Shown here one piece after another: positions 19,778-27,785 of a stretch of 64,000 nt of DNA (position 1 is its first letter; each line of letters starts with the position of its first letter). The notes beneath the pieces are model-generated. The model saw only the letters and a program-made list of their open reading frames with translations. It did no database searches and was not told where the DNA came from. The translations under genes and the position numbers were made by a program. The stretch is taken from NCBI GenBank assembly GCA_963677745.1, contig OY782391.1:1120001-1184000 (forward strand). Direction: 5' to 3'. This DNA comes from Candidatus Altimarinota bacterium. GTDB lineage: Bacteria; Patescibacteriota; Gracilibacteria; UBA1369.

Positions 19778-20836
19778 GTGAAAATCGCAGTGCTCGCCTC
19801 GGGCGGGGTGGACAGTTCGGTGGTACTGAAATTGTTGCAGCGTGAGGGCCACGATGTGACCGCTTTTTATCTTAAAATCTGGCTGGAGGATGAGCTGAGT
19901 TTCCTGGGCAATTGCCCTTGGGAAGAGGATTTGCAATACCTGAGGGAGATCTGTGCGGCCGGCGGCGTGCCTCTGCAGATTATCAATCTGCAAAAGGAAT
20001 ACCACCAGGAGGTGGTTTCCTATGCCCTACGCGAGATCAAAGCCGGCCGCACCCCCAACAGTGATCTTTTGTGCAATTCCAAAATCAAATTCGGGAAATT
20101 CTATGAAAAAATCGGTCCGCAATTCGATCTGGTTGCTTCCGGACATTATGCTGACAAAACCGTTATTGACGGACAGCATTTTCTGACCCGTTCCAAAGAC
20201 ACCTTCAAGGACCAGACCTATTTTCTGGCTCATCTCAATCAGGAGCAGCTGAAACGCGCGGTTTTCCCGCTCGGCCCCTACCTCAAATCCGAAGTCCGCG
20301 ATCTGGCCAAACAATTCAAGCTGCCCAACCAGGCCCGCAAAGACAGCCAGGGGATCTGTTTTCTGGGCAATATCAAGTATCCTGATTTTGTGCGCTTCCA
20401 TCTGGGGGAAAAACCGGGAGATCTGATCAACTACGATACCGGTGAAATAGTCGGCCGGCATGAAGGATATTGGTTCTACACCATCGGCCAGCGCAAGGGG
20501 ATTAAACTCTCCGGAGGACCCTGGTTTGTCATAAAAAAGGATATTGCTGCCAATACCGTTTATATTTCCAATACCTACCACGACCTTTCCAAAAAGCGTG
20601 ATCACTTTGAAGTGGAGGATTTACACTGGATTTCAGGTCCACCGACTCCCCAAAATTTGCAGAAGCTGCAGGTAAAAGTCCGTCATGGAGAAAAACTTTA
20701 TGATGCCACTCTCAGTCTTTTGGACGGCCGGCGGGGAAAAGTGACAATCGAAGGCTCCGACCAGGGTTTCGCCGCCGGCCAGTTTGCAGTCTTTTATAGC
20801 GGCGAATTTTGCCTTGGTTGCGGGACAATCATCTAG
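19778..20836 (+). CDS. mnmA: tRNA 2-thiouridine(34) synthase MnmA
   Basis: SGGVDS, TPNSDLLCN, SGHYA, KDQTYFL, KDSQGICF, YTIGQRKG. Confidence 0.97.
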   Translation: MKIAVLASGGVDSSVVLKLLQREGHDVTAFYLKIWLEDELSFLGNCPWEEDLQYLREICAAGGVPLQIINLQKEYHQEVVSYALREIKAGRTPNSDLLCNSKIKFGKFYEKIGPQFDLVASGHYADKTVIDGQHFLTRSKDTFKDQTYFLAHLNQEQLKRAVFPLGPYLKSEVRDLAKQFKLPNQARKDSQGICFLGNIKYPDFVRFHLGEKPGDLINYDTGEIVGRHEGYWFYTIGQRKGIKLSGGPWFVIKKDIAANTVYISNTYHDLSKKRDHFEVEDLHWISGPPTPQNLQKLQVKVRHGEKLYDATLSLLDGRRGKVTIEGSDQGFAAGQFAVFYSGEFCLGCGTII

Positions 20837-20898
20837 GCCGGACTATTTGGAGAATTTCAAAAAGGTGTTATAATTATAACAGGAATATTTTAAGAATT

Positions 20899-22185
20899 AT
20901 GGCTAATCAAAACCCCTCAAAACCTGATCCGATCAACGACGATATTATTTCGGAGCAGGAGGCAAAAATAGACTCGGAGACGGTTCAATTCCGCCCTGAA
21001 CAGGTTACTGTTCCGGATATACGGCAAGTTGATCTGGTTGAAGAGATTTCCCGCGATGACACACTGCCCACGGCTGAAAGATCCAAAGTGGCCGAACTGA
21101 CCCTAAAATTCTCTTCCGAAGGCGATGAGGAGTCGCAGCGCGGACTTGCCGACACCGCCAGCGAAGCGATGGTTCACTACGATGCCGGAGCCCGGATGGA
21201 TCTGGAATCCCGCGAAGCCAAAGACGGTGTGGATCTCAGCAACAAAATCATGCGCAGGGGAAACTTCCCAACCGAAGAATATCTTTCGGACATGGGATAT
21301 TACGGATTTGACGTGAAACACGATTTCGATAAAAAGGAGACGGTTTATTCCCAGTCGACTTTTGGCAGACTGATGCTCACATTGGAAAAATGGTTCTATC
21401 GCAAACGTGATTCCGGCTCACTTAGAAAGGGCAGAACGGTCAGGGAAAAGATCACCGGCAAAAATCACGCCCCCCAAATTGTCGAACGGGCCAAAGTTCT
21501 TGGTCAGGAACAGTATTTTTCCCTGAATGATCAGGGCCAGGTGGTCGAAAAGACCTCCGATCTGACCGGCGGAGCCAGTCTGGATGATCTGTTGCGTTTT
21601 CATAAAAGGGAAGATGCTCCTGCGATTCATAAAAAAATGACGGAAAAGGAAAGAGAAATCGCCGCCAAAGGTTACCAATTCCTTCGTGATCTGGCACCTC
21701 AAATTGAAAACAGTCTGGCCATGTCAGCCCGGACAGTCCAAAGAATCCATGAACAGTCCGGCGGCGGAATCGGGGAGGTATTATGTAATGACCTTATTTT
21801 ACAATTGGATAACGGTAAAGTGACAGGAGTCCGCCTGGCCCTGCCCGACGTTCAATATGCGGAAGGTGTGGACGCCCTGGAACAAAAAGCCACCGACCTG
21901 GCCGATTTTTGCTTTTCGGCCGGCAGCGCGGGCTTCCAGGTCTATGGAGAAGATCAAGCCAGATCATATATCCGAACCATCCTTTCCAATTATGATGACG
22001 AAATGGTCAAATCCGCCCTTCTGGCGACGGTTCCCAGCCGTCCTCACTACGGTTATATCACCAACCGTCCCAGACTGGGATTTGACCGTATGAAAAATTC
22101 CAAACAAGTTTTTGAACAGGTCCGCCAATTGATTATCGATGAGTTGCATAAAAAACCGCCGCTGTTGCCGCAAAAAGCCGAATAG
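20899..22185 (+). CDS. hypothetical protein with degenerate kinase-like C-terminal domain
   Basis: ATG follows TGTTATAAT (20866-20874); IHEQSGGGIGEVLCNDLIL...DLADF pattern. Confidence 0.7.
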   Translation: MANQNPSKPDPINDDIISEQEAKIDSETVQFRPEQVTVPDIRQVDLVEEISRDDTLPTAERSKVAELTLKFSSEGDEESQRGLADTASEAMVHYDAGARMDLESREAKDGVDLSNKIMRRGNFPTEEYLSDMGYYGFDVKHDFDKKETVYSQSTFGRLMLTLEKWFYRKRDSGSLRKGRTVREKITGKNHAPQIVERAKVLGQEQYFSLNDQGQVVEKTSDLTGGASLDDLLRFHKREDAPAIHKKMTEKEREIAAKGYQFLRDLAPQIENSLAMSARTVQRIHEQSGGGIGEVLCNDLILQLDNGKVTGVRLALPDVQYAEGVDALEQKATDLADFCFSAGSAGFQVYGEDQARSYIRTILSNYDDEMVKSALLATVPSRPHYGYITNRPRLGFDRMKNSKQVFEQVRQLIIDELHKKPPLLPQKAE

Positions 22186-22300
22186 ACAATTGCCTGCAGG
22201 ATGTGGTTTTGCCCCTTACTAATCACAAAAAAAAGTTATTTTACATCAGGAGAAAGAATGGTAAAATAGCTTGTACAGGAAACACCTCATTTAACTGCCC

Positions 22301-24730
22301 ATGAAGGTGAGCCCAAAAAACAGGGGACAGGATCTGCTGGAGATTCTGGAAAAAAAACACCAGATTGATCTGGAGGGATTAATAGACACCATCAAGGGCT
22401 ATAACCCTGAATTTGACGAGAGCAAATTTCGTGAAGCTTTTATCTTTGCAGCGGTGGCGCATGAAGGGCAAACCCGCAAACAGGTCGATGTTCCTTATAT
22501 TGTTCATCCCTTTGAAACGGCCAAGATTCTCACCCAGATTCACGCGGATGAGCCGACTTTGATTGCTTCACTCCTGCATGACGTGCCTGAGGACACCACC
22601 TACACGCTGGAACAGATTGAAGCTCATTTTGGCAAGCAGGTGGCCTACATGGTGGAGGGGATTACCAAATTATCCAAAGTCCACTATCGACATGACATGC
22701 AGCAGCGCGAAGTGGAAAGCATGAAAAAACTGTTCATCCACGTAGCCGAGGATCCCCGCACCATGCTGATCAAGCTGGCCGACCGTCTGCACAACATGCG
22801 CACGCTGGAATATATGGACGTCCCCGAGAAAAGACTCCGGAAAGCCCGTGAAACGCTCGAGGTCTTTACCCCGATCGCCAATTTGCTTGGTATCAAGGAG
22901 TTGCAGGCCGAACTGGAGGATTTATGTTTTATCAATCTCTATCCTGAAGATTACGCAAAATTAAAGGAAAGAGTTCAGCAGGAGAGGAAAGACCACGCCA
23001 AAGACATGGAGAAAATGATTACGGATACCGAAAAAGCTCTTAAGGATAATAAAATTGACGCGATTGTCTATTCCTATCAGGAAAATCTTTATCGAACCTA
23101 TAACCGTCTGAAGCGTGAAAAAAAGACCATCGACGAACTGGAGGTGACGTTTTTAATCAATGTGATCGTCAACGATGTGGCTGTCTGCTACGAAGCTTTG
23201 GGGGCGGTACATGGCCTCTACAGGCCGCATCCGGGCAAAATTCGCGATTATATTTCTTTGCCCAAGGCCAACGGTTATCAGAGCCTCCATACCACTGTTT
23301 TCGGGATCAAGGGTATCAATACCAAATATTGTATCCGTACCAACCAGATGCACTTCGAGGCTCAATATGGAATTGCCGCCAGTTATTTCACCCCTGACGG
23401 CCGTAAACACAAACTTTTCACCAGTGCCGATCCGCGCTCCCACTGGGTTGAGGACGCTTTGCAGATACAAAAAGAACACAGCGCCGAATCCAAATATTTT
23501 GATGAACTGAAAAATTATGTTTTCCAGGATCGCATCAATGTCCTGACCCCCAAAGGCAAAACCTGTGATCTGCCGGTAAGCGCCACCTGTATTGATTTCG
23601 CCTATTCCATTCATACCGAGGTGGGGAACCGGGCCATCCGGGCGGTGGTAAACGGCAACAATGTGCCGCTGGATTATCATCTGCAGACCGGAGACGTAGT
23701 AAAAATCATCACCACCGACTACCCCAAAGGGCCCAGCTATGAATGGATGAGCTTTGCCAAAACTCCCCAGGCCCGCAAGACCATGAAAGAGTATTTCAGA
23801 AGGGAAAGTTCCGCCTCCAAGGTTCAAATCGGCCGGAAAATGCTGCAGAAGGAATACGACCGTGCCGGCGAAGGACTGGTCAACAGTATGTCCAAATGGA
23901 AACTACAGAAAATTGCCCAGCAATTTCCGGCCCTCAACATCCAGACCACGGAAGATTTATTGGTTCATATTGCGGAAGGATCAATTTCCACACTGGAAAT
24001 AATCAACCTGTTGGCTACCGTCATCCCCAATGAACTTTCCGAAAACGGTGAGAACGGTTTCACCAGACGAAAGTCAACCAAGCTTTCCATCAAGGTCACC
24101 TGTGATTCCAGCGTCAATTTTGCCGAACTGATCAGCCGGCTCCAGAAAAGAAAAGAATCGTTTTTTCTGCTTTCCGGAGATACCAAATACAATTATCTCA
24201 ACAACAAGATTATCTACCGTGCCAACATGCTGGTAAAAGGATACAGCGACATCTCCAACATCTGCCGCGAACTGGAGAGTCTTCCCGGCGTGGAACAGGT
24301 ACAGCGTCTGTTCTGGGGTAAGAAACTGGTTTTCTTTTTGGGAAGCATCTTCACCTTCATGGTCTGGGCCGTACATCCCCTGGCGCTCTATTACATCACC
24401 AGCCAGTGGCAGACCAGTCCGGAAGCGGTGCGTCTGGTTGCCAACACGGTCTTGTTCGCAGGCTTGTTTATACTGTTTTCCCTGATCTTTTTTCTTAAAC
24501 AATACACCGAAAACAGCTTTCCCGAATTCCGCGAAGGCAGTCGCCTCTGGCAGGTTGCTTACGTACTTAGTTTCTTCGCCCTGGTCACGATTTTTCTGGA
24601 AATCTATCTCTACAAACTCAGTTTTGACTGGGCCTGGGTATTAGCCAGCGTTATTCTGATTTTCGCCTATCTGACCGGCCAATACATTTATTACCGGGAA
24701 AAAAATCCCCCTGAACATCTCGAAAAATAA
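22301..24730 (+). CDS. RelA/SpoT homolog (HD hydrolase, degenerate synthetase, TGS) with C-terminal TM helices
   Basis: AHEGQTRK, PYIVHP, LLHDVPEDT, IKLADRLHNMRTL, PKANGYQSLHT, DFAYSIHTEVG; four hydrophobic segments at the C-terminus. Confidence 0.92.
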   Translation: MKVSPKNRGQDLLEILEKKHQIDLEGLIDTIKGYNPEFDESKFREAFIFAAVAHEGQTRKQVDVPYIVHPFETAKILTQIHADEPTLIASLLHDVPEDTTYTLEQIEAHFGKQVAYMVEGITKLSKVHYRHDMQQREVESMKKLFIHVAEDPRTMLIKLADRLHNMRTLEYMDVPEKRLRKARETLEVFTPIANLLGIKELQAELEDLCFINLYPEDYAKLKERVQQERKDHAKDMEKMITDTEKALKDNKIDAIVYSYQENLYRTYNRLKREKKTIDELEVTFLINVIVNDVAVCYEALGAVHGLYRPHPGKIRDYISLPKANGYQSLHTTVFGIKGINTKYCIRTNQMHFEAQYGIAASYFTPDGRKHKLFTSADPRSHWVEDALQIQKEHSAESKYFDELKNYVFQDRINVLTPKGKTCDLPVSATCIDFAYSIHTEVGNRAIRAVVNGNNVPLDYHLQTGDVVKIITTDYPKGPSYEWMSFAKTPQARKTMKEYFRRESSASKVQIGRKMLQKEYDRAGEGLVNSMSKWKLQKIAQQFPALNIQTTEDLLVHIAEGSISTLEIINLLATVIPNELSENGENGFTRRKSTKLSIKVTCDSSVNFAELISRLQKRKESFFLLSGDTKYNYLNNKIIYRANMLVKGYSDISNICRELESLPGVEQVQRLFWGKKLVFFLGSIFTFMVWAVHPLALYYITSQWQTSPEAVRLVANTVLFAGLFILFSLIFFLKQYTENSFPEFREGSRLWQVAYVLSFFALVTIFLEIYLYKLSFDWAWVLASVILIFAYLTGQYIYYREKNPPEHLEK

Positions 24731-24800
24731 TAGCTGAAAAACACCACCTGTTTTTAGTTGGTCGGTTCGGTCGTTTTACCTGTTTCGGCGCGGTTTCCGG

Positions 24801-25889
24801 TCAGGCTGAATGACGGAAATGCATCACATCCCCGTCTTTGACTATATATTCTTTTCCTTCCAGTCGCAGCAGGCCTTTTTCCCGTGCCTGGACTTCGCCG
24901 CCGCAAGCCACATAATCGTCATAGCCAATTACCTCCGCCCGAATGAAGGCTTTTTCAAAATCGGTATGTATCACGCCGGCGGCGCGCGGTGCGGTATCTC
25001 CCCGGTGTATTGTCCAGGCCCGTACTTCCTTCGGCCCGGCCGTGAAGTAGGTCATCAGTCCCAGTGTGTCATAGGCCGCATGGATCAATGCGTTCAGCCC
25101 GCTCTCTTTAATCCCCAGCTCATCCAGCAAATCACGGGATTCTTCCTCGGTGAAATTAATCAGCTCCTCCTCCACTTTGGCCGAAATAGGAATGAGCTTG
25201 GCCGATTCCGGCAGGCCCATATCTTTCCGTACCTGTTGTACGATAATCGTTTTCAGATCGTTTTCGGAAATATTGAGAATATACAAAAACGGTTTGGCGG
25301 TAAGCAAATGAAGATCGCGGATTTCCTCACGTTCTTCAGCCGTCAAATTCAGATCGATGGCTTTTTTCCCGCCCTGCAGAAAGTCGTCGATCTTTTGCAG
25401 TAAGGCAGCATAGGCCACTTTTTTCTTGTCACCGGACTTGGCATCGCTATGGGCTTTGCCCAACCTTTTTTCCAGTGTCTGCAAATCAGCCAGTATCAGT
25501 TCGGTATCAATGATTTCCAGGTCGCGTCGGGCGTCCACCCCTCCATGCACATGTATAACATTGTCGTCCCGGAACAGTCTGATCACCTGTCCGATTGCAT
25601 CGCACTCGCGGATATGAGCCAAAAACTGGTTGCCCAGCCCTTCTCCGGTCGAGGCTCCTTTGACCAGACCGGCAATATCCACAAATTCCACGACGGCCGG
25701 TACCAACCGTTCCGGAGTAACCAGTTCGGCAAGTTTGGCGATGCGTGGATCCGGCACCTCCACAATACCCACATTCGGATCAATGGTGCAGAAAGGATAA
25801 TTGGCAGCCATCGCTCCGGAAGATTTGGTCAGGGCATTGAAAAGAGTTGATTTGCCCACATTGGGCAGTCCTACGATACCGATTTTCAT
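24801..25889 (-). CDS. ychF: redox-regulated ATPase YchF
   Basis: GIVGLPNVGKST, NYPFCTIDPN, DIAGLV, TGS domain. Confidence 0.98.
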   Translation of the reverse strand: MKIGIVGLPNVGKSTLFNALTKSSGAMAANYPFCTIDPNVGIVEVPDPRIAKLAELVTPERLVPAVVEFVDIAGLVKGASTGEGLGNQFLAHIRECDAIGQVIRLFRDDNVIHVHGGVDARRDLEIIDTELILADLQTLEKRLGKAHSDAKSGDKKKVAYAALLQKIDDFLQGGKKAIDLNLTAEEREEIRDLHLLTAKPFLYILNISENDLKTIIVQQVRKDMGLPESAKLIPISAKVEEELINFTEEESRDLLDELGIKESGLNALIHAAYDTLGLMTYFTAGPKEVRAWTIHRGDTAPRAAGVIHTDFEKAFIRAEVIGYDDYVACGGEVQAREKGLLRLEGKEYIVKDGDVMHFRHSA

Positions 25890-25920: not shown

Positions 25921-26919
25921 CTAGAATTTTACCAGCACCTTTTCCGGACTGAAAGAGATGATTTTAAGATCGGTTCCCGCCGGCAAAACGATATCGCCGG
26001 AATTAACAACATATATTCCTTTTTGCAGGCTGGAGGTCTTGATCAATAGTTTGAGCGAGTTGCTGTCCAGAGTCGCCAGCACTTCGGGAATTCCCTCTAC
26101 GGTCACCAGAATATTTTTTGGCAGCAGCTCTTTTACCGATGAACTCAAATCATCCGCCGTTTTTGCTTCGACCATCAGTGTCTTTCGTTCCTTGCCGGAT
26201 TCCACCGGAGTGTCCGTTCCGTCAACCACGGTCCCGGAATCCGTCCCGGAAGCATTTGTATCCGTAGTGTTATTCTTTTTTCTGATTTCAATATCCGCCT
26301 GAATTACCGGAGGATCAAAACTTACCGTTTTTCCGGAAAGACTCCACTCGGCCGGAGCTTCCAGAGTTATTTTGCGGCTGAAATCGGCTGTTTCCGTGCC
26401 ATCCAAAGTAATTTTTATCGGCAGATTTTGCAGTTCGGAAATGGCACTGGCGGCCCCGCTAATATTCACGGTTTCTGTATCTATTTTCAGGCTCTTGATC
26501 TCGTAATCCTTGGCCGGAGCGCCCGTGATTTCACTTTCCAGGGTAATGTACCTGCTGGTGATGGCCTCCAGTTTAAGTTTCAGTTTGGCCGGTTCCACCG
26601 CCACAATCGCCAGTTTAACATTTTTAGTGGTGAATCCGACCGGCAGGGTATATTCCCCCTCGCCCAGTCCTTCCGCGTCCAGAAACAAATCAAAATCATT
26701 GCTGTTGGCGGTGATGGATCCGGAAGGAGTCTTATAGAGAATTTTTACCCCTTCGATCTCGCTGGCCACACTGACATTTTTTCCCATGTTAATTATTTTA
26801 ACCGGAAGATTCCCGGGAAAAACATAAACATAATTTTCCACTCCCACCACAAACATCCACAAAATAACGGCCGAAATCACAGCCAGCAGTTTGAGATGTA
26901 GATTTTTAAATATATTCAT
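25921..26919 (-). CDS. cdaR: CdaR/YbbR-like regulator of diadenylate cyclase
   Basis: N-terminal TM KLLAVISAVILWMFV, YbbR-like repeats; overlaps the cdaA stop. Confidence 0.85.
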   Translation of the reverse strand: MNIFKNLHLKLLAVISAVILWMFVVGVENYVYVFPGNLPVKIINMGKNVSVASEIEGVKILYKTPSGSITANSNDFDLFLDAEGLGEGEYTLPVGFTTKNVKLAIVAVEPAKLKLKLEAITSRYITLESEITGAPAKDYEIKSLKIDTETVNISGAASAISELQNLPIKITLDGTETADFSRKITLEAPAEWSLSGKTVSFDPPVIQADIEIRKKNNTTDTNASGTDSGTVVDGTDTPVESGKERKTLMVEAKTADDLSSSVKELLPKNILVTVEGIPEVLATLDSNSLKLLIKTSSLQKGIYVVNSGDIVLPAGTDLKIISFSPEKVLVKF

Positions 26920-27785
26920 TGGCTGTCGCGGTAAACCAAATGCTTTTCCTTCTTTTTTCTGTCTTTCGGCTCCAGGACAATTCGCAGCAGATGCTGCAGT
27001 CTGGCCGCATCGATGTCACGCTCCAGCCGGCCGTTCTTGGCAAAACTGATCGAGCCTCTTTCCTCTGAAATCACGATCACACTGGCGTCAGTGTGATCGG
27101 TCAAACCGATTGCCGCTTTGTGCCGGGTCCCATAACTCTTTTCCTTGTTGTCGAAGCTGGTCGGCAGTATGCATGCGGCAGCTTTGATCCTGCCGTTTTC
27201 CACGATCACCGCCCCGTCATGCAGGGGGCCCTTGCCGTGAAAGATCGAAATCAATAATTCCTTGCTCAGCAGGGCGTCCATTTTCACCCCGCTCTCAATA
27301 TATTCTTTCAGCGGAATACCGTGTCGGAACACAATCAGGGCTCCTTCTTTCCTTTCCGAAAGGTAGACGCAGCTGGCTACCGTCTCGGAAATCATTGCGT
27401 CCACCTGCGGGTTTTTCCCGCCGGTCAGAAAAGGCGTATTGCCGATTTTTTCCAGACCCATGCGCAGTTCCTGCTGGAACAGGATGGGAATGGAGATCAA
27501 TAAAATTGTGAAAAACCTGTCCAATAGCCAGCCTACGGCCAGCAGATTAAGTGATTTGCTGATCAGAAAAAGTATAAAAATAATGGATAGCCCCAGCAGA
27601 ACGCTTACCGACCGTGAGCCTTTCAGCATCGAAAAAATGAAATAAAAGGTCAGCGCCACAATTCCAATATCCAGAAGTACCTGCCACAGGCTCATGTCGG
27701 AATAAATCAGATTTTGCCAAAATTCCCGCGCAATATTGGCGATCTGCGATATGCCGCTGGCAATAAAACTGCTGATGGCGTCCAT
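26916..27785 (-). CDS. cdaA: diadenylate cyclase CdaA
   Basis: Three TMs, FQQELR, GALIV, PLHDGAV, GTRHKAA, VISEERG. Confidence 0.95.
   Translation of the reverse strand: MDAISSFIASGISQIANIAREFWQNLIYSDMSLWQVLLDIGIVALTFYFIFSMLKGSRSVSVLLGLSIIFILFLISKSLNLLAVGWLLDRFFTILLISIPILFQQELRMGLEKIGNTPFLTGGKNPQVDAMISETVASCVYLSERKEGALIVFRHGIPLKEYIESGVKMDALLSKELLISIFHGKGPLHDGAVIVENGRIKAAACILPTSFDNKEKSYGTRHKAAIGLTDHTDASVIVISEERGSISFAKNGRLERDIDAARLQHLLRIVLEPKDRKKKEKHLVYRDSQ

What the first reader, a model, noticed from the sequence alone, without database searches (positions are those of the whole stretch)
22301..24730. Membrane-anchored, synthetase-dead long RelA/SpoT homolog
Seen: the hydrolase motifs are intact (H..Q.RK, YIVHP, HDVPED, KLADRLHN). 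The synthetase motifs are lost: GRxKxxxS.xxK reads YSYQENLYRTYNRL, the catalytic D-xx-A-x-R reads EVTFLIN, and E-x-Q-IRT reads TKYCIRT. TGS is present, the Cys zinc-finger is absent, and the protein ends in about four TM helices (~24325-24690). Established: long RSH enzymes are normally soluble, and hydrolase-only pseudo-synthetase forms exist. Inference: a membrane-tethered (p)ppGpp/(p)ppApp hydrolase that responds to envelope or host-contact cues.
Basis: partly seen in the sequence, partly recalled or inferred. Interest (0 to 1): 0.7.

Follow-up and report, generated by a model that had tools for sequence, protein, structure and literature searches.

The report
Membrane-anchored hydrolase-only RelA/SpoT homolog
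A small-genome candidate-phyla-radiation bacterium has split its alarmone (ppGpp) metabolism between a soluble enzyme that looks able only to make the signal and this membrane-embedded relative that looks able only to destroy it, which echoes the RelA/SpoT split of E. coli but adds a membrane domain not found on such enzymes in the papers searched.

Summary
ORF 22301-24730 (+, 809 aa) is a long RelA/SpoT homolog. All 11 hydrolase residues scored are intact and 0 of 7 synthetase residues are canonical. It has TGS, helical and ACT-like domains, no zinc-finger domain, and four C-terminal TM helices (AF2 pLDDT 88).

The tail is not a fusion artefact. 118 of 119 listed homologs have it, and in 53 of 61 genome matches it lies in a frame of 762 aa or more. 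Seven of the other eight are broken only by in-frame TGA.

The tail has no Pfam family and no specific structural relative. It is almost confined to one class of the Patescibacteria group.

The genome's only other synthetase-domain gene is a soluble 746-aa long RSH with degraded hydrolase motifs, an intact synthetase, and zinc-finger and ACT domains. In the family, the TM copy keeps the hydrolase in 32 of 32 genomes. The soluble copy keeps the synthetase in 34 of 34 and has lost the ED motif in 34 of 34. Synthetase decay in the TM copy marks one 14-genome subclade and needs at least 4 independent events.

Best reading: a membrane-anchored, monofunctional (p)ppGpp hydrolase, convergent with Moraxellaceae SpoT[Hs]. 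Sensing of envelope or host cues is untested.

The parts
22240..22267 (+). sigma-70-like promoter match (TTTACA-16-TAAAAT, TG before the -10 element) 34 nt upstream of the start codon
   Evidence: 10 of 12 matches. This is a consensus scan only: 8 sites were found in the region against 3.4 expected.
22301..24730 (+). CDS of the 809-aa TM-tailed long RSH (P0001)
   Evidence: TIGR00691 spoT_relA scores 499.6 bits against a cut-off of 499.2.
22436..22894 (+). HD (alarmone hydrolase) domain, residues 46-198, with all 11 scored catalytic/metal residues present (H54 Q57 R59 H69 H93 D94 E97 D98 D161 H164 N165)
   Evidence: HD_4 1.3e-39; the same 11 residues are identical in 120 of 120 listed family members
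23048..23395 (+). pseudo-synthetase domain, residues 250-365: fold retained, catalytic residues replaced (S258 Y259 E261 V282 N287 K342 C344 in place of G R K D R E Q)
   Evidence: The NTD of the model superposes on S. aureus Rel NTD 7oiw with TM 0.93 and rmsd 1.9 A.
23534..23713 (+). TGS domain, residues 412-471
   Evidence: 1.9e-21; beta-rich fold, pLDDT >90
23744..24016 (+). alpha-helical (AH/HEL) domain, residues 482-572. The RIS/zinc-finger domain that follows it in canonical long RSHs is absent.
   Evidence: RelA_AH_RIS profile positions 3-92 of 185 only, 21.9 bits, below the 23.8 cut-off; the paralog matches 3-172
24077..24310 (+). ACT/RRM-like beta-alpha-beta-beta-alpha-beta domain, residues 593-670, running directly into TM helix 1 (R669 invariant)
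   Evidence: E593-601 H607-615 E621-631 E636-645 H648-659 E664-670; ACT_4 E 0.096 only; many homologs carry a precomputed PF13291 hit
24314..24703 (+). C-terminal four-helix transmembrane domain, residues 672-801. Invariant H692, P693, E767; at least 90% conserved W689, L725, K733, F740, P741, R744, W750, A760, Y790.
   Evidence: No Pfam family and no specific structural relative.
24759..24773 (+). terminator-like hairpin 29 nt after the stop codon; the gene converges on ychF
   Evidence: consensus scan only; 4 sites found against 3.4 expected

Best explanation
The gene encodes a monofunctional alarmone hydrolase of long-RSH ancestry, [Hs] in the notation of Tamman et al. It is permanently inserted in the cytoplasmic membrane by a lineage-specific four-helix C-terminal domain.

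Shown here:
- The HD site is complete and invariant across the family.
- The synthetase site has lost all seven scored catalytic or substrate-binding residues, but the domain is still folded and conserved (a pseudo-SYNTH domain).
- The zinc-finger/RIS domain is missing.
- The ACT-like domain runs straight into TM helix 1.
- The tail is part of the same open frame in relatives.
- The same genome holds exactly one other synthetase-domain gene. It is a soluble long RSH with degraded HD motifs, an intact synthetase and the full TGS-AH-ZFD-ACT set.

Inferred:
- The soluble paralog acts as the RelA-like (p)ppGpp source.
- This protein, with its N-terminal enzymatic part in the cytoplasm (N-in/C-in topology), removes the 3'-pyrophosphate from (p)ppGpp at the inner face of the membrane and so resets the alarmone pool, as SpoT does for RelA.
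- The retained pseudo-SYNTH, TGS, AH and ACT domains act as allosteric scaffolding for the HD site, as was shown for A. baumannii SpoT.
- The welded ACT-TM junction offers a path by which the state of the membrane domain could tune hydrolysis.

Evolutionary order, from trees and motif tallies: a TM-tailed and a soluble paralog coexist across the order. The soluble copy lost hydrolase residues first, across the whole family. The TM copy then lost synthetase residues in the window's subclade and, independently, in at least three other lineages.
For: Architecture. The AF2 model has pLDDT 88.2 and pTM 0.75, shows four long C-terminal helices and has no domain between AH and ACT.

Hydrolase. 11 of 11 residues are identical in 120 of 120 listed family members and in 32 of 32 family genomes.

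Synthetase. 0 of 7 canonical residues in the query. 27 of 120 listed homologs have 0-1 of 5, and 79 of 120 have 5 of 5. The pseudo-SYNTH domain is still 63% pairwise-identical within the dead clade, against 82% for HD.

Tail fused, not split. 118 of 119 homologs have C-terminal hydrophobic segments. A tail-only profile finds 75 cluster representatives among 1.84 billion, always at the C-terminus; 36 are 731 aa or longer, and 36 of the 39 shorter ones align to the C-terminal part of P0001. In 401 class genomes, 61 have the tail: 53 in frames of 762-1162 aa and 7 in frames broken only by in-frame TGA.

Partner. PF04607 hits only two places in the 97.9%-complete single-contig genome.

Reciprocity in the family. 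Soluble copy: synthetase at least 6 of 7 in 34 of 34, ED motif intact in 0 of 34. TM copy: SYN 0-1 of 7 in 14 genomes and 5-7 of 7 in 18.

Outside the family. 7 of 8 genomes with a TM-tailed RSH have a soluble paralog with degraded HD and intact SYN.

Trees. TM-tailed and soluble proteins mostly fall into separate clades (SH-aLRT 98 and 100). On a tree built without SYN columns the 14 dead-SYN family members form one clade (100), and at least 4 state changes are needed.

Precedent. Hydrolase-only SpoT with a regulatory pseudo-SYNTH domain is experimentally established in A. baumannii (PMC9974481, passages read).
Against: - No activity was measured. Loss of synthetase and retention of hydrolase are read from residues only.
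- HD-domain enzymes of this superfamily can act on other substrates, for example the Mesh1-NADPH complex 5vxa listed.
- Among the 'synthetase-intact' TM-tailed relatives, only 50 of 120 have Asp at the position aligned to the catalytic Asp. 29 with the other five residues intact lack it, and many have Asn there with an Asp one residue upstream. The motif-based boundary between active and inactive is therefore not sharp.
- The AF2 global arrangement matches no solved full-length state (TM 0.34-0.41 to 7qpr, 6yxa and 5iqr), so the allosteric path is conjecture.
- TIGR00691 is passed by only 0.4 bits.
- In one search six TM-tailed rows (G216, G204, G295, G081, G279 and the two giant forms) fall outside the 98-supported clade, so a single clean TM-tailed clade is not established.
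- Both trees are 'quick' IQ-TREE runs without the mixture model, and several long branches were flagged.
- The genome also has two small HD_4 proteins that could be the main hydrolases.
Confidence: 0.75

Rival explanations
1. The protein is still bifunctional: it makes (p)ppGpp with a non-canonical active site, and the TM tail merely localises a Rel-type enzyme.
For: The SYNTH fold is retained and still conserved (63% pairwise identity in the dead clade; Pfam RelA_SpoT 70 bits). Most TM-tailed relatives keep canonical synthetase residues (79 of 120 have 5 of 5).
Against: All seven scored residues are replaced, including charge reversals at the positions aligned to the catalytic Glu (K342) and to the Lys of GRxK (E261). 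The replacements are themselves conserved in the clade: N287 in 23 of 26 and K342 in 22 of 26. A complete synthetase is encoded elsewhere in the genome. A. baumannii SpoT, with comparable losses, is experimentally SYNTH-inactive.
Confidence: 0.05
2. The HD domain is active, but its main substrate is not (p)ppGpp: for example (p)ppApp, pGpp or NADPH (Mesh1-like). (p)ppGpp turnover is then done by the two small HD_4 proteins.
For: The genome has two further HD_4 proteins with intact HD/ED/H-N motifs (L005 1381..2064 and L006 1432..2112). Mesh1 structures with NADPH appear among the fold matches of the HD domain. Substrate specificity cannot be read from these motifs.
Against: The HD domain is closest by sequence and fold to bona fide (p)ppGpp hydrolases of long Rel enzymes (6yxa E 4e-116; 7oiw TM 0.93). 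Reciprocal decay with a (p)ppGpp-synthetase paralog is what a shared (p)ppGpp cycle predicts.
Confidence: 0.1
3. It is a catalytically silent pseudoenzyme: a membrane scaffold or regulator that binds, but does not turn over, alarmones or the paralog.
For: One of the two catalytic domains is already a pseudo-domain. The stem branch of the dead clade is long (0.58) even without the SYN columns.
Against: The 11 hydrolase residues are invariant in 120 of 120 homologs, and HD is the best-conserved domain (82% pairwise identity). That is not expected of a site without catalysis.
Confidence: 0.03
4. The TM tail is an assembly or gene-calling artefact: a separate membrane-protein gene fused to a truncated RSH.
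For: 39 of the 75 tail-bearing cluster representatives are short (59-572 aa), and five of 215-229 aa begin near the linker before the ACT domain. One genome match lies in a 333-aa frame with no stop inside (G530, E 6e-7).
Against: 36 of the 39 short proteins align to the C-terminal part of P0001, many from their first residues, as truncated fragments would. In genomes the tail lies in frames of 762 aa or more in 53 of 61 matches, and 7 of the other 8 are interrupted only by TGA, in lineages whose full-length RSH match also carries many TGAs. The window comes from a single-contig, 97.9%-complete genome. The AF2 model packs the ACT strand directly into helix 1 with pLDDT about 90.
Confidence: 0.01

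Closest known systems
SpoT[Hs], the hydrolase-only SpoT of Moraxellaceae (A. baumannii SpoT, PDB 7qpr; PMC9974481, passages read)
   Same: A long RSH whose synthetase residues are lost while the SYNTH fold is kept as a pseudo-domain. The HD is intact. It is paired with a monofunctional synthetase paralog that is the sole alarmone source. 7qpr is found by sequence (E 3.7e-63) and by fold.
   Different: Independent origin: it arose within a Patescibacteria-group lineage (trees), and the SpoT equivalog model NF008303 scores 423 bits against a 947 cut-off. SpoTAb is soluble and keeps ZFD and RRM. This protein lacks the ZFD and ends in a 4-TM domain. The predicted global arrangement does not reproduce the tau-state (TM 0.34-0.41).
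RelA/SpoT pair of Beta-/Gammaproteobacteria (as described in PMC3153485 and PMC9974481)
   Same: A duplicated long RSH is subfunctionalised into a synthetase-only copy with a pseudo-HD and a hydrolase-bearing copy. Here the soluble copy has lost the ED motif in 34 of 34 family genomes while keeping the synthetase.
   Different: A different lineage and a separate duplication. The hydrolase-bearing copy is membrane-integral. In the window's subclade both copies look fully monofunctional.
Plant RSH1 (Arabidopsis AtRSH1; review PMC5633626, two passages read)
   Same: A long RSH without synthetase activity (G376S substitution, per the review), for which two putative C-terminal transmembrane segments (811-827, 848-864) were proposed.
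   Different: According to the review the plant TM proposal dates from 2000, and the protein was later localised to chloroplasts. The plant synthetase defect is given as a single substitution, whereas here all seven scored residues are replaced. No homology between the tails was tested.
Bifunctional Rel (B. subtilis Rel 6yxa; S. aureus Rel NTD 7oiw)
   Same: These are the best sequence and fold matches for HD, SYNTH fold, TGS and AH: E 4e-116 over residues 23-571, and NTD TM 0.93 with rmsd 1.9 A.
   Different: Rel is soluble, has an active synthetase, and carries ZFD plus RRM.
Small alarmone hydrolases (Mesh1, RelH, P. aeruginosa SAH)
   Same: Hydrolase-only members of the RSH superfamily. The HD domain matches them (E 1e-11 to 1e-16 by sequence; TM 0.69-0.77 normalised to the target).
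   Different: SAHs are single-domain proteins of about 180-200 aa. This protein keeps the whole long-RSH regulatory region and adds a membrane domain.

Membership tests
Long RSH (RelA/SpoT family, TIGR00691 / Pfam HD_4 + RelA_SpoT + TGS) | N-terminal HD-type alarmone hydrolase domain | tested here: met
   HD_4 1.3e-39, residues 46-198
Long RSH (RelA/SpoT family, TIGR00691 / Pfam HD_4 + RelA_SpoT + TGS) | RelA_SpoT nucleotidyltransferase (SYNTH) domain fold | tested here: met
   PF04607 70.3 bits against a cut-off of 27; the NTD model superposes on 7oiw with TM 0.93
Long RSH (RelA/SpoT family, TIGR00691 / Pfam HD_4 + RelA_SpoT + TGS) | TGS domain after the catalytic half | tested here: met
   PF02824 1.9e-21, residues 412-471
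Long RSH (RelA/SpoT family, TIGR00691 / Pfam HD_4 + RelA_SpoT + TGS) | Whole-protein score over the curated cut-off | tested here: met
   TIGR00691 499.6 bits against 499.2, a pass by 0.4 bits
Long RSH (RelA/SpoT family, TIGR00691 / Pfam HD_4 + RelA_SpoT + TGS) | Zinc-finger / ribosome-intersubunit (ZFD/RIS) domain between AH and ACT | tested here: not met
   The AH_RIS profile is matched only at positions 3-92 of 185, against 3-172 in the paralog. There is no Cys cluster and no domain between helix 564-572 and strand 593 in the model.
Long RSH (RelA/SpoT family, TIGR00691 / Pfam HD_4 + RelA_SpoT + TGS) | C-terminal ACT/RRM domain | tested here: inconclusive
   ACT_4 reaches only E 0.096, but the model shows a beta-alpha-beta-beta-alpha-beta unit at 593-670, and many homologs carry precomputed PF13291
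Catalytically active (p)ppGpp synthetase | Canonical G-R-x-K, D-x-x-A-x-R and E-x-Q-IRT residues (names of the motifs recalled; positions taken from the alignment to 6yxa) | tested here: not met
   S258 Y259 E261 V282 N287 K342 C344: 0 of 7 canonical
Catalytically active alarmone hydrolase (HD) | H-x-x-Q-x-R, H-P, H-D, E-D and D-R-x-H-N residues | tested here: met
   11 of 11 present and identical in 120 of 120 homologs. Enzyme activity itself cannot be tested with these tools.
SpoT (NCBIfam equivalog NF008303) / Moraxellaceae SpoT[Hs] | Orthology to proteobacterial SpoT | tested here: not met
   NF008303 423.3 bits against a cut-off of 947. Its nearest relatives are TM-tailed RSHs named by their sources as Peregrinibacteria, Altimarinota or Patescibacteria group. 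The trees place its origin within that group.
SpoT (NCBIfam equivalog NF008303) / Moraxellaceae SpoT[Hs] | Hydrolase-competent, synthetase-incompetent long RSH paired with a synthetase-only paralog (a functional definition) | tested here: met
   By residues only:
Known membrane sensor or anchor domain families (Pfam) | Significant match of the tail to any curated family | tested here: not met
   10 tails were scanned. No family was matched by more than 1 of 10, and the best E was 0.009, below every cut-off. 7TMR-DISM_7TM reached E 0.016 on the whole protein. The structural searches are inconclusive.

The most novel reading that the evidence does not exclude
The four-helix domain is not a passive anchor but an intramembrane sensor. 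An invariant His-Pro (H692-P693, TM1) and an invariant Glu (E767, TM3) both lie about 16-20 residues into helices that run from the cytoplasm outwards, so near the outer leaflet. They would report proton-motive force, external pH or cations, or lipid or host-contact state. The signal would pass through the rigid ACT-TM1 junction (invariant R669) and the pseudo-SYNTH/TGS scaffold to switch (p)ppGpp hydrolysis on or off. That would be a ribosome-independent, membrane-gated arm of the stringent response, invented in ultra-small, probably episymbiotic bacteria. Its repeated pairing with a RelA-like paralog would make this a third, independent and more extreme RelA/SpoT-type division of labour.
Probability: 0.25. 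Interest if true: 0.75.

Novelty: new variant of a known kind. Interest (0 to 1): 0.55.

Why it matters
Long RSH enzymes are the master regulators of the bacterial stringent response. In the papers read here they are treated as soluble factors associated with ribosomes or partner proteins.

This finding adds three things:
1. A conserved family of long RSHs that are integral membrane proteins and have lost the ribosome-contacting zinc-finger domain.
2. An independent, stepwise subfunctionalisation into a synthetase-only and a hydrolase-only enzyme outside the Proteobacteria. The intermediates are still alive in sister genera: 18 family genomes have a synthetase-intact TM copy and 14 have a dead one. 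That gives a natural series for testing the 'conformational gatekeeping' model of Tamman et al.
3. A concrete handle on alarmone signalling in candidate-phyla-radiation bacteria. The full-text searches here returned no paper on RSH enzymes in this group.

If the membrane domain proves regulatory, it would link membrane state directly to (p)ppGpp turnover.

Tried and rejected
Fusion artefact or split gene: rejected (see rivals). A weak residue remains. Five 215-229-aa cluster representatives start near the pre-ACT linker, and G530 has a 333-aa frame.

Known family for the tail: none was found. Pfam on the whole protein and on 10 tails gave nothing over a cut-off. The ESM Atlas feature search of residues 665-809 gave no usable hit. 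Foldseek against PDB gave no match at E 0.001 or better. VIA-align against 48,161 chains gave a best Z of 10.7 to designed helical bundles, which is below the roughly 13 that the tool's note says helical bundles reach by chance. This shows only that no specific relative was found, not that the fold is new.

Conformational state. I hoped the full-length model would match either the compact SpoT tau-state (7qpr) or the ribosome-bound extended state. It matches neither (TM 0.34-0.41), so nothing is concluded. Their depth in the membrane is inferred from helix numbering only.

External sensor domain: rejected on anatomy. The extracytoplasmic loops are about 4-10 residues.

Literature. No paper describing a transmembrane long RSH, or RSH enzymes in Patescibacteria/CPR, was returned (55 papers, 15 listed; 0; 3; 3; 2) or 71 (5), judged from titles and abstracts. 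'Transmembrane' occurs 0 times in Atkinson 2011 and in Jimmy 2020. Supplementary datasets of those papers, which hold the RSH classification tables, are closed and may bear on this claim. The library also lacks most subscription journals.

Complex prediction was not used, because I make no binding claim.


Full report
1. WHAT IS THERE

The window holds a single 809-codon ORF at 22301..24730 on the + strand. Only two codons lie between the upstream stop and the ATG (open frame 811 aa). A promoter-like site lies at 22240-22267 and a terminator-like hairpin at 24759-24773. The gene converges on ychF.

Pfam finds HD_4 (46-198, 1.3e-39), RelA_SpoT (262-361, 2.1e-19), TGS (412-471, 1.9e-21) and the first half only of RelA_AH_RIS (485-581, profile positions 3-92 of 185, below its cut-off). 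ACT_4 gives a very weak hit (637-669, E 0.096). NCBIfam's general spoT_relA model is passed by 0.4 bits (499.6 against 499.2). The SpoT and RelA equivalog models are far below their cut-offs.

The best solved relative is B. subtilis Rel (6yxa, E 4e-116, residues 23-571). A. baumannii SpoT (7qpr) is also found (E 3.7e-63).

All quoted strings are present. In the printed alignment to 6yxa, the GRPKHIYSIYRKM stretch of Rel faces YSYQENLYRTYNRL, YDLLAVRIL faces EVTFLINVI, and LEVQIRT faces TKYCIRT. The Arg and Lys of GRxK, the Asp and Arg of D-x-x-A-x-R, and the Glu and Gln of E-x-Q-IRT are therefore all replaced, two of them with charge reversal (E261, K342). The names and roles of these motifs are recalled knowledge; the alignment is the tool result.

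All 11 hydrolase positions I scored (H54 Q57 R59 H69 H93 D94 E97 D98 D161 H164 N165) are canonical.

3. THE C-TERMINAL HALF

An AlphaFold2 model built on 80 homologs is confident (pLDDT 88.2, pTM 0.75). It shows TGS, a helical domain (482-572), a short low-confidence linker, and a beta-alpha-beta-beta-alpha-beta unit (593-670). Its last strand runs straight into four long helices (672-702, 707-739, 748-771, 777-801).

No domain lies between the helical domain and the ACT-like unit, and that stretch has no Cys cluster.

Hydropathy agrees with four spans. Counting Lys and Arg by eye in the printed sequence gives 9 on the N-side flank, loop 2 and the C-terminus, against 2 on loops 1 and 3. That fits an N-in/C-in topology with very short outer loops.

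The NTD of the model superposes on the S. aureus Rel NTD (7oiw) with TM 0.93 and rmsd 1.9 A. The overall arrangement matches no solved full-length state (TM 0.34-0.41).

4. IS THE TAIL REAL AND CONSERVED?

The 120 best proteins in a 5.8-billion-sequence search are almost all 777-834 aa and cover 93-99% of the query. The one exception is the 677-aa P0029, at 78%. 118 of the 119 non-query sequences have two to four hydrophobic segments after about residue 650; P0029 has none.

In the 80-sequence alignment the tail has invariant R669, H692, P693 and E767. W689, L725, K733, F740, P741, R744, W750, A760 and Y790 are at least 90% conserved. It is therefore a conserved domain and not merely a greasy anchor.

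A profile of ten diverse tails, searched against 1.84 billion cluster representatives, finds only 75 proteins, and the match is always at the C-terminal end. 36 are 731 aa or longer. Of the 39 shorter ones, 36 align to the C-terminal part of P0001, many from their first residues, as N-terminally truncated fragments would; 3 gave no BLAST hit.

In 401 genomes of the window's class, 61 carry the tail. 53 are in open frames of 762-1162 aa. 7 are in frames interrupted only by in-frame TGA, and for one of those genomes (G268) one search shows a match over residues 17-797 with 25 TGAs, which suggests TGA is read as sense there. 1 is a weak match in a 333-aa frame.

5. DISTRIBUTION

The sources' own names for close homologs are Candidatus Peregrinibacteria (66% and 56% identity), Candidatus Altimarinota (55%) and Patescibacteria group (lineage).

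By family code, the tail is present in 11 of 11 sampled genomes of the window's family. In the other families of its order the counts are f2 4/4, f3 8/14, f4 16/16, f98 1/3, f99 5/5, f100 0/5, f123 1/1, f124 0/2, f125 0/1, f126 1/1 and f127 0/1, which sums to 36 of 53. Only 13 genomes elsewhere in the class have it.

In a phylum-wide sample of 401 genomes, 8 have it. 7 are in the class. The eighth (G119) carries it on a contig in a genome with 5% contamination.

The tail has no Pfam family, no Atlas look-alike and no specific structural relative.

6. THE SECOND ENZYME

The window's genome is one contig of 1.336 Mb, 97.9% complete. PF04607 hits two places only: this gene and C1:225762-226139.

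The second gene (746 aa, C1:224631-226871, minus strand; L001 370..2610) has HD_4 (94 bits), RelA_SpoT (116 bits), TGS, AH_RIS over profile positions 3-172, and ACT_4. It has a Cys-rich stretch before the ACT domain and no hydrophobic segment. Its synthetase residues are 7 of 7 canonical. Its hydrolase residues are 3 of 11 (YLRRISYSDEN in place of HQRHHDEDDHN). By residues, it is a RelA-like [hS] enzyme.

Two further small HD_4 proteins (227 and 226 aa), with HD, ED and H-N motifs visible in their translations, are encoded elsewhere.

7. COMPARATIVE TEST OF THE DIVISION OF LABOUR

All 36 family genomes match P0001. I could score the TM copy in 32 genomes and the soluble copy in 34. The rest lay at contig ends or were fragmented, and I did not fetch them.

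- TM copy: hydrolase 11 of 11 in 32 of 32. Synthetase 0-1 of 7 in 14 genomes and 5-7 of 7 in 18.
- Soluble copy: synthetase at least 6 of 7 in 34 of 34. ED motif intact in 0 of 34. Overall hydrolase score 2-8 of 11.
- Among the 30 genomes with both scored: 13 combine a dead TM synthetase with a soluble hydrolase score of 3 or less; 15 combine an intact TM synthetase with a score of 4-8; 2 combine an intact TM synthetase with a score of 3 or less.

These genomes are kin, so this is one main event and not 13 independent ones.

Outside the family, 7 of 8 genomes with a TM-tailed RSH have a soluble paralog with degraded HD and intact SYN. In the eighth (G295) both proteins look bifunctional.

In a phylum sample, 9 of 10 genomes of the window's order or class have two or more RelA_SpoT-domain genes, against 11 of 139 matching genomes elsewhere (the tally includes the unpublished G150).

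8. TREES

On the first 620 residues, with the tail excluded, most TM-tailed proteins fall in one clade of 31 rows (SH-aLRT 98). This clade also holds five tail-less proteins of families f3 and f100. The soluble long RSHs of the class form another clade of 25 rows (100), which contains the hydrolase-degraded paralogs of the order (6 rows, 100). L012 (G295, TM-tailed) sits as sister to the soluble clade with weaker support (84).

Six TM-tailed rows fall outside the 98-supported clade: G216, G204, G295, G081, G279 and the two giant forms. A single clean TM-tailed clade is therefore not established.

On a tree of 42 TM-tailed proteins plus 3 outgroups, built without the SYN-domain columns, the 14 dead-synthetase family members form one clade (100). 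They sit on a long stem (0.58) nested among synthetase-intact relatives. The fewest changes of state over the tree is 4 (two-state) or 5 (three-state). The other decays are in f4 (G270, G250/G161), G204 and G216, each with different substitutions.

Both trees are quick searches under LG+G4 with flagged long branches. The number of losses is a lower bound that depends on my thresholds.

9. MECHANISM

Shown: the anatomy, the conservation, the fused tail, the partner gene and the reciprocal decay.

Established elsewhere: a long RSH can become a hydrolase-only enzyme whose pseudo-SYNTH, TGS, ZFD and RRM domains tune the HD site allosterically, with RelA as the sole alarmone source (A. baumannii; PMC9974481, passages read).

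Inferred for this protein:
- It hydrolyses (p)ppGpp made by the soluble paralog.
- It does so at the membrane.
- Loss of the ZFD together with anchoring takes it off the ribosome.
- The ACT-TM1 weld gives the membrane domain a lever on the catalytic half.

Whether that lever is used is open. The conserved outer-leaflet His-Pro and Glu are suggestive, but their depth is inferred from helix numbering only. I put the passive-anchor and sensor readings at roughly 2:1 within the best explanation.

10. COMPARISON AND NOVELTY

In function it works like Moraxellaceae SpoT[Hs] paired with RelA. By descent it is not SpoT (NF008303 423 against 947; trees). It fails one canonical long-RSH feature (the ZFD) and adds a domain with no known family.

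The plant RSH1 literature offers the only earlier proposal I found of a synthetase-dead long RSH with C-terminal TM segments (review PMC5633626, passages read).

I found no paper on TM-anchored long RSHs or on RSHs of this bacterial group. Supplements and subscription journals were not searchable. I rate it a new variant of a known kind.

11. CAVEAT ON THE 'INTACT' RELATIVES

At the position aligned to the catalytic Asp (282), only 52 of 93 'synthetase-intact' homologs have Asp. 27 have Asn, with an Asp one residue upstream. Motif-based calls of 'bifunctional' for those relatives are therefore provisional, and decay of the synthetase in this family may be more gradual than a two-state picture suggests.

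Noticed in passing
G000:C1:224631-226871 (minus strand; L001 370..2610), outside the window: A soluble 746-aa long RSH with degraded hydrolase motifs (3 of 11), an intact synthetase (7 of 7), and TGS, AH-RIS/zinc-finger and ACT domains. It is the presumptive sole (p)ppGpp synthetase of the genome.
   Followed up: yes
L005 1381..2064 (+) and L006 1432..2112 (+) (G000:C1, near 592 kb and 324 kb): Two small HD_4 proteins (227 and 226 aa) with HD, ED and H-N motifs visible in the translations. They would be small-alarmone-hydrolase-like, giving this 1.3-Mb genome three putative alarmone hydrolases for one synthetase.
   Followed up: partly
window 24801-25889 (-), 25921-26919 (-), 26916-27785 (-): ychF (YchF-GTPase_C + MMR_HSR1) converges on the RSH gene, followed by a YbbR-domain protein and a CdaA-type diadenylate cyclase (CdaA_N + DAC). 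A c-di-AMP synthase module thus sits about 1.2 kb from the alarmone hydrolase. A ychF ortholog (73-87% identity) lies beside the RSH in the loci of all 13 other dead-synthetase family genomes and was not found in the loci of the 18 synthetase-intact ones (the flanks are only about 1.5 kb).
   Followed up: partly
window 20809-22185 (+): A 458-aa ORF directly upstream of the RSH gene, overlapping the end of mnmA by 28 nt. It has no Pfam family at E 0.001 or better.
   Followed up: no
L047 (G230:C23, 1162-aa ORF) and L048 (G218:C7, 941-aa ORF); also G497:C1:91729-94020 and G602:C124:7272-9596 (1107-aa frames, each with 1 TAA inside): Giant RSH forms with intact HD motifs, decayed synthetase motifs and about 9-11 hydrophobic segments. 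Their first four segments match the tail profile weakly (for example G230, E 4e-10). This looks like a further elaboration of the membrane domain.
   Followed up: partly
class-level genomes of families f117, f119, f121 and f107 (e.g. G268:C6:9254-11509, 25 TGA; G223, 25 TGA): The RSH genes of several families in the class carry 3-25 in-frame TGA codons over otherwise full-length matches. That is as expected if these lineages read TGA as a sense codon. The window's own family shows none.
   Followed up: no
L013, L015-L018 (G081, G057, G297, G305, G279; 643-689-aa ORFs): Within the TM-tailed clade of the tree, families f3 and f100 hold shorter copies without a tail and with both active sites intact. 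G081 and G279 additionally carry a TM-tailed copy of 819-822 aa (L045, L046). Tail loss or further duplication has therefore occurred.
   Followed up: partly
G119:C85:1805-2248 (752-aa frame): The only tail match outside the class in the phylum sample. It sits in a genome listed with 5% contamination and may be a binning contaminant rather than a true occurrence.
   Followed up: no
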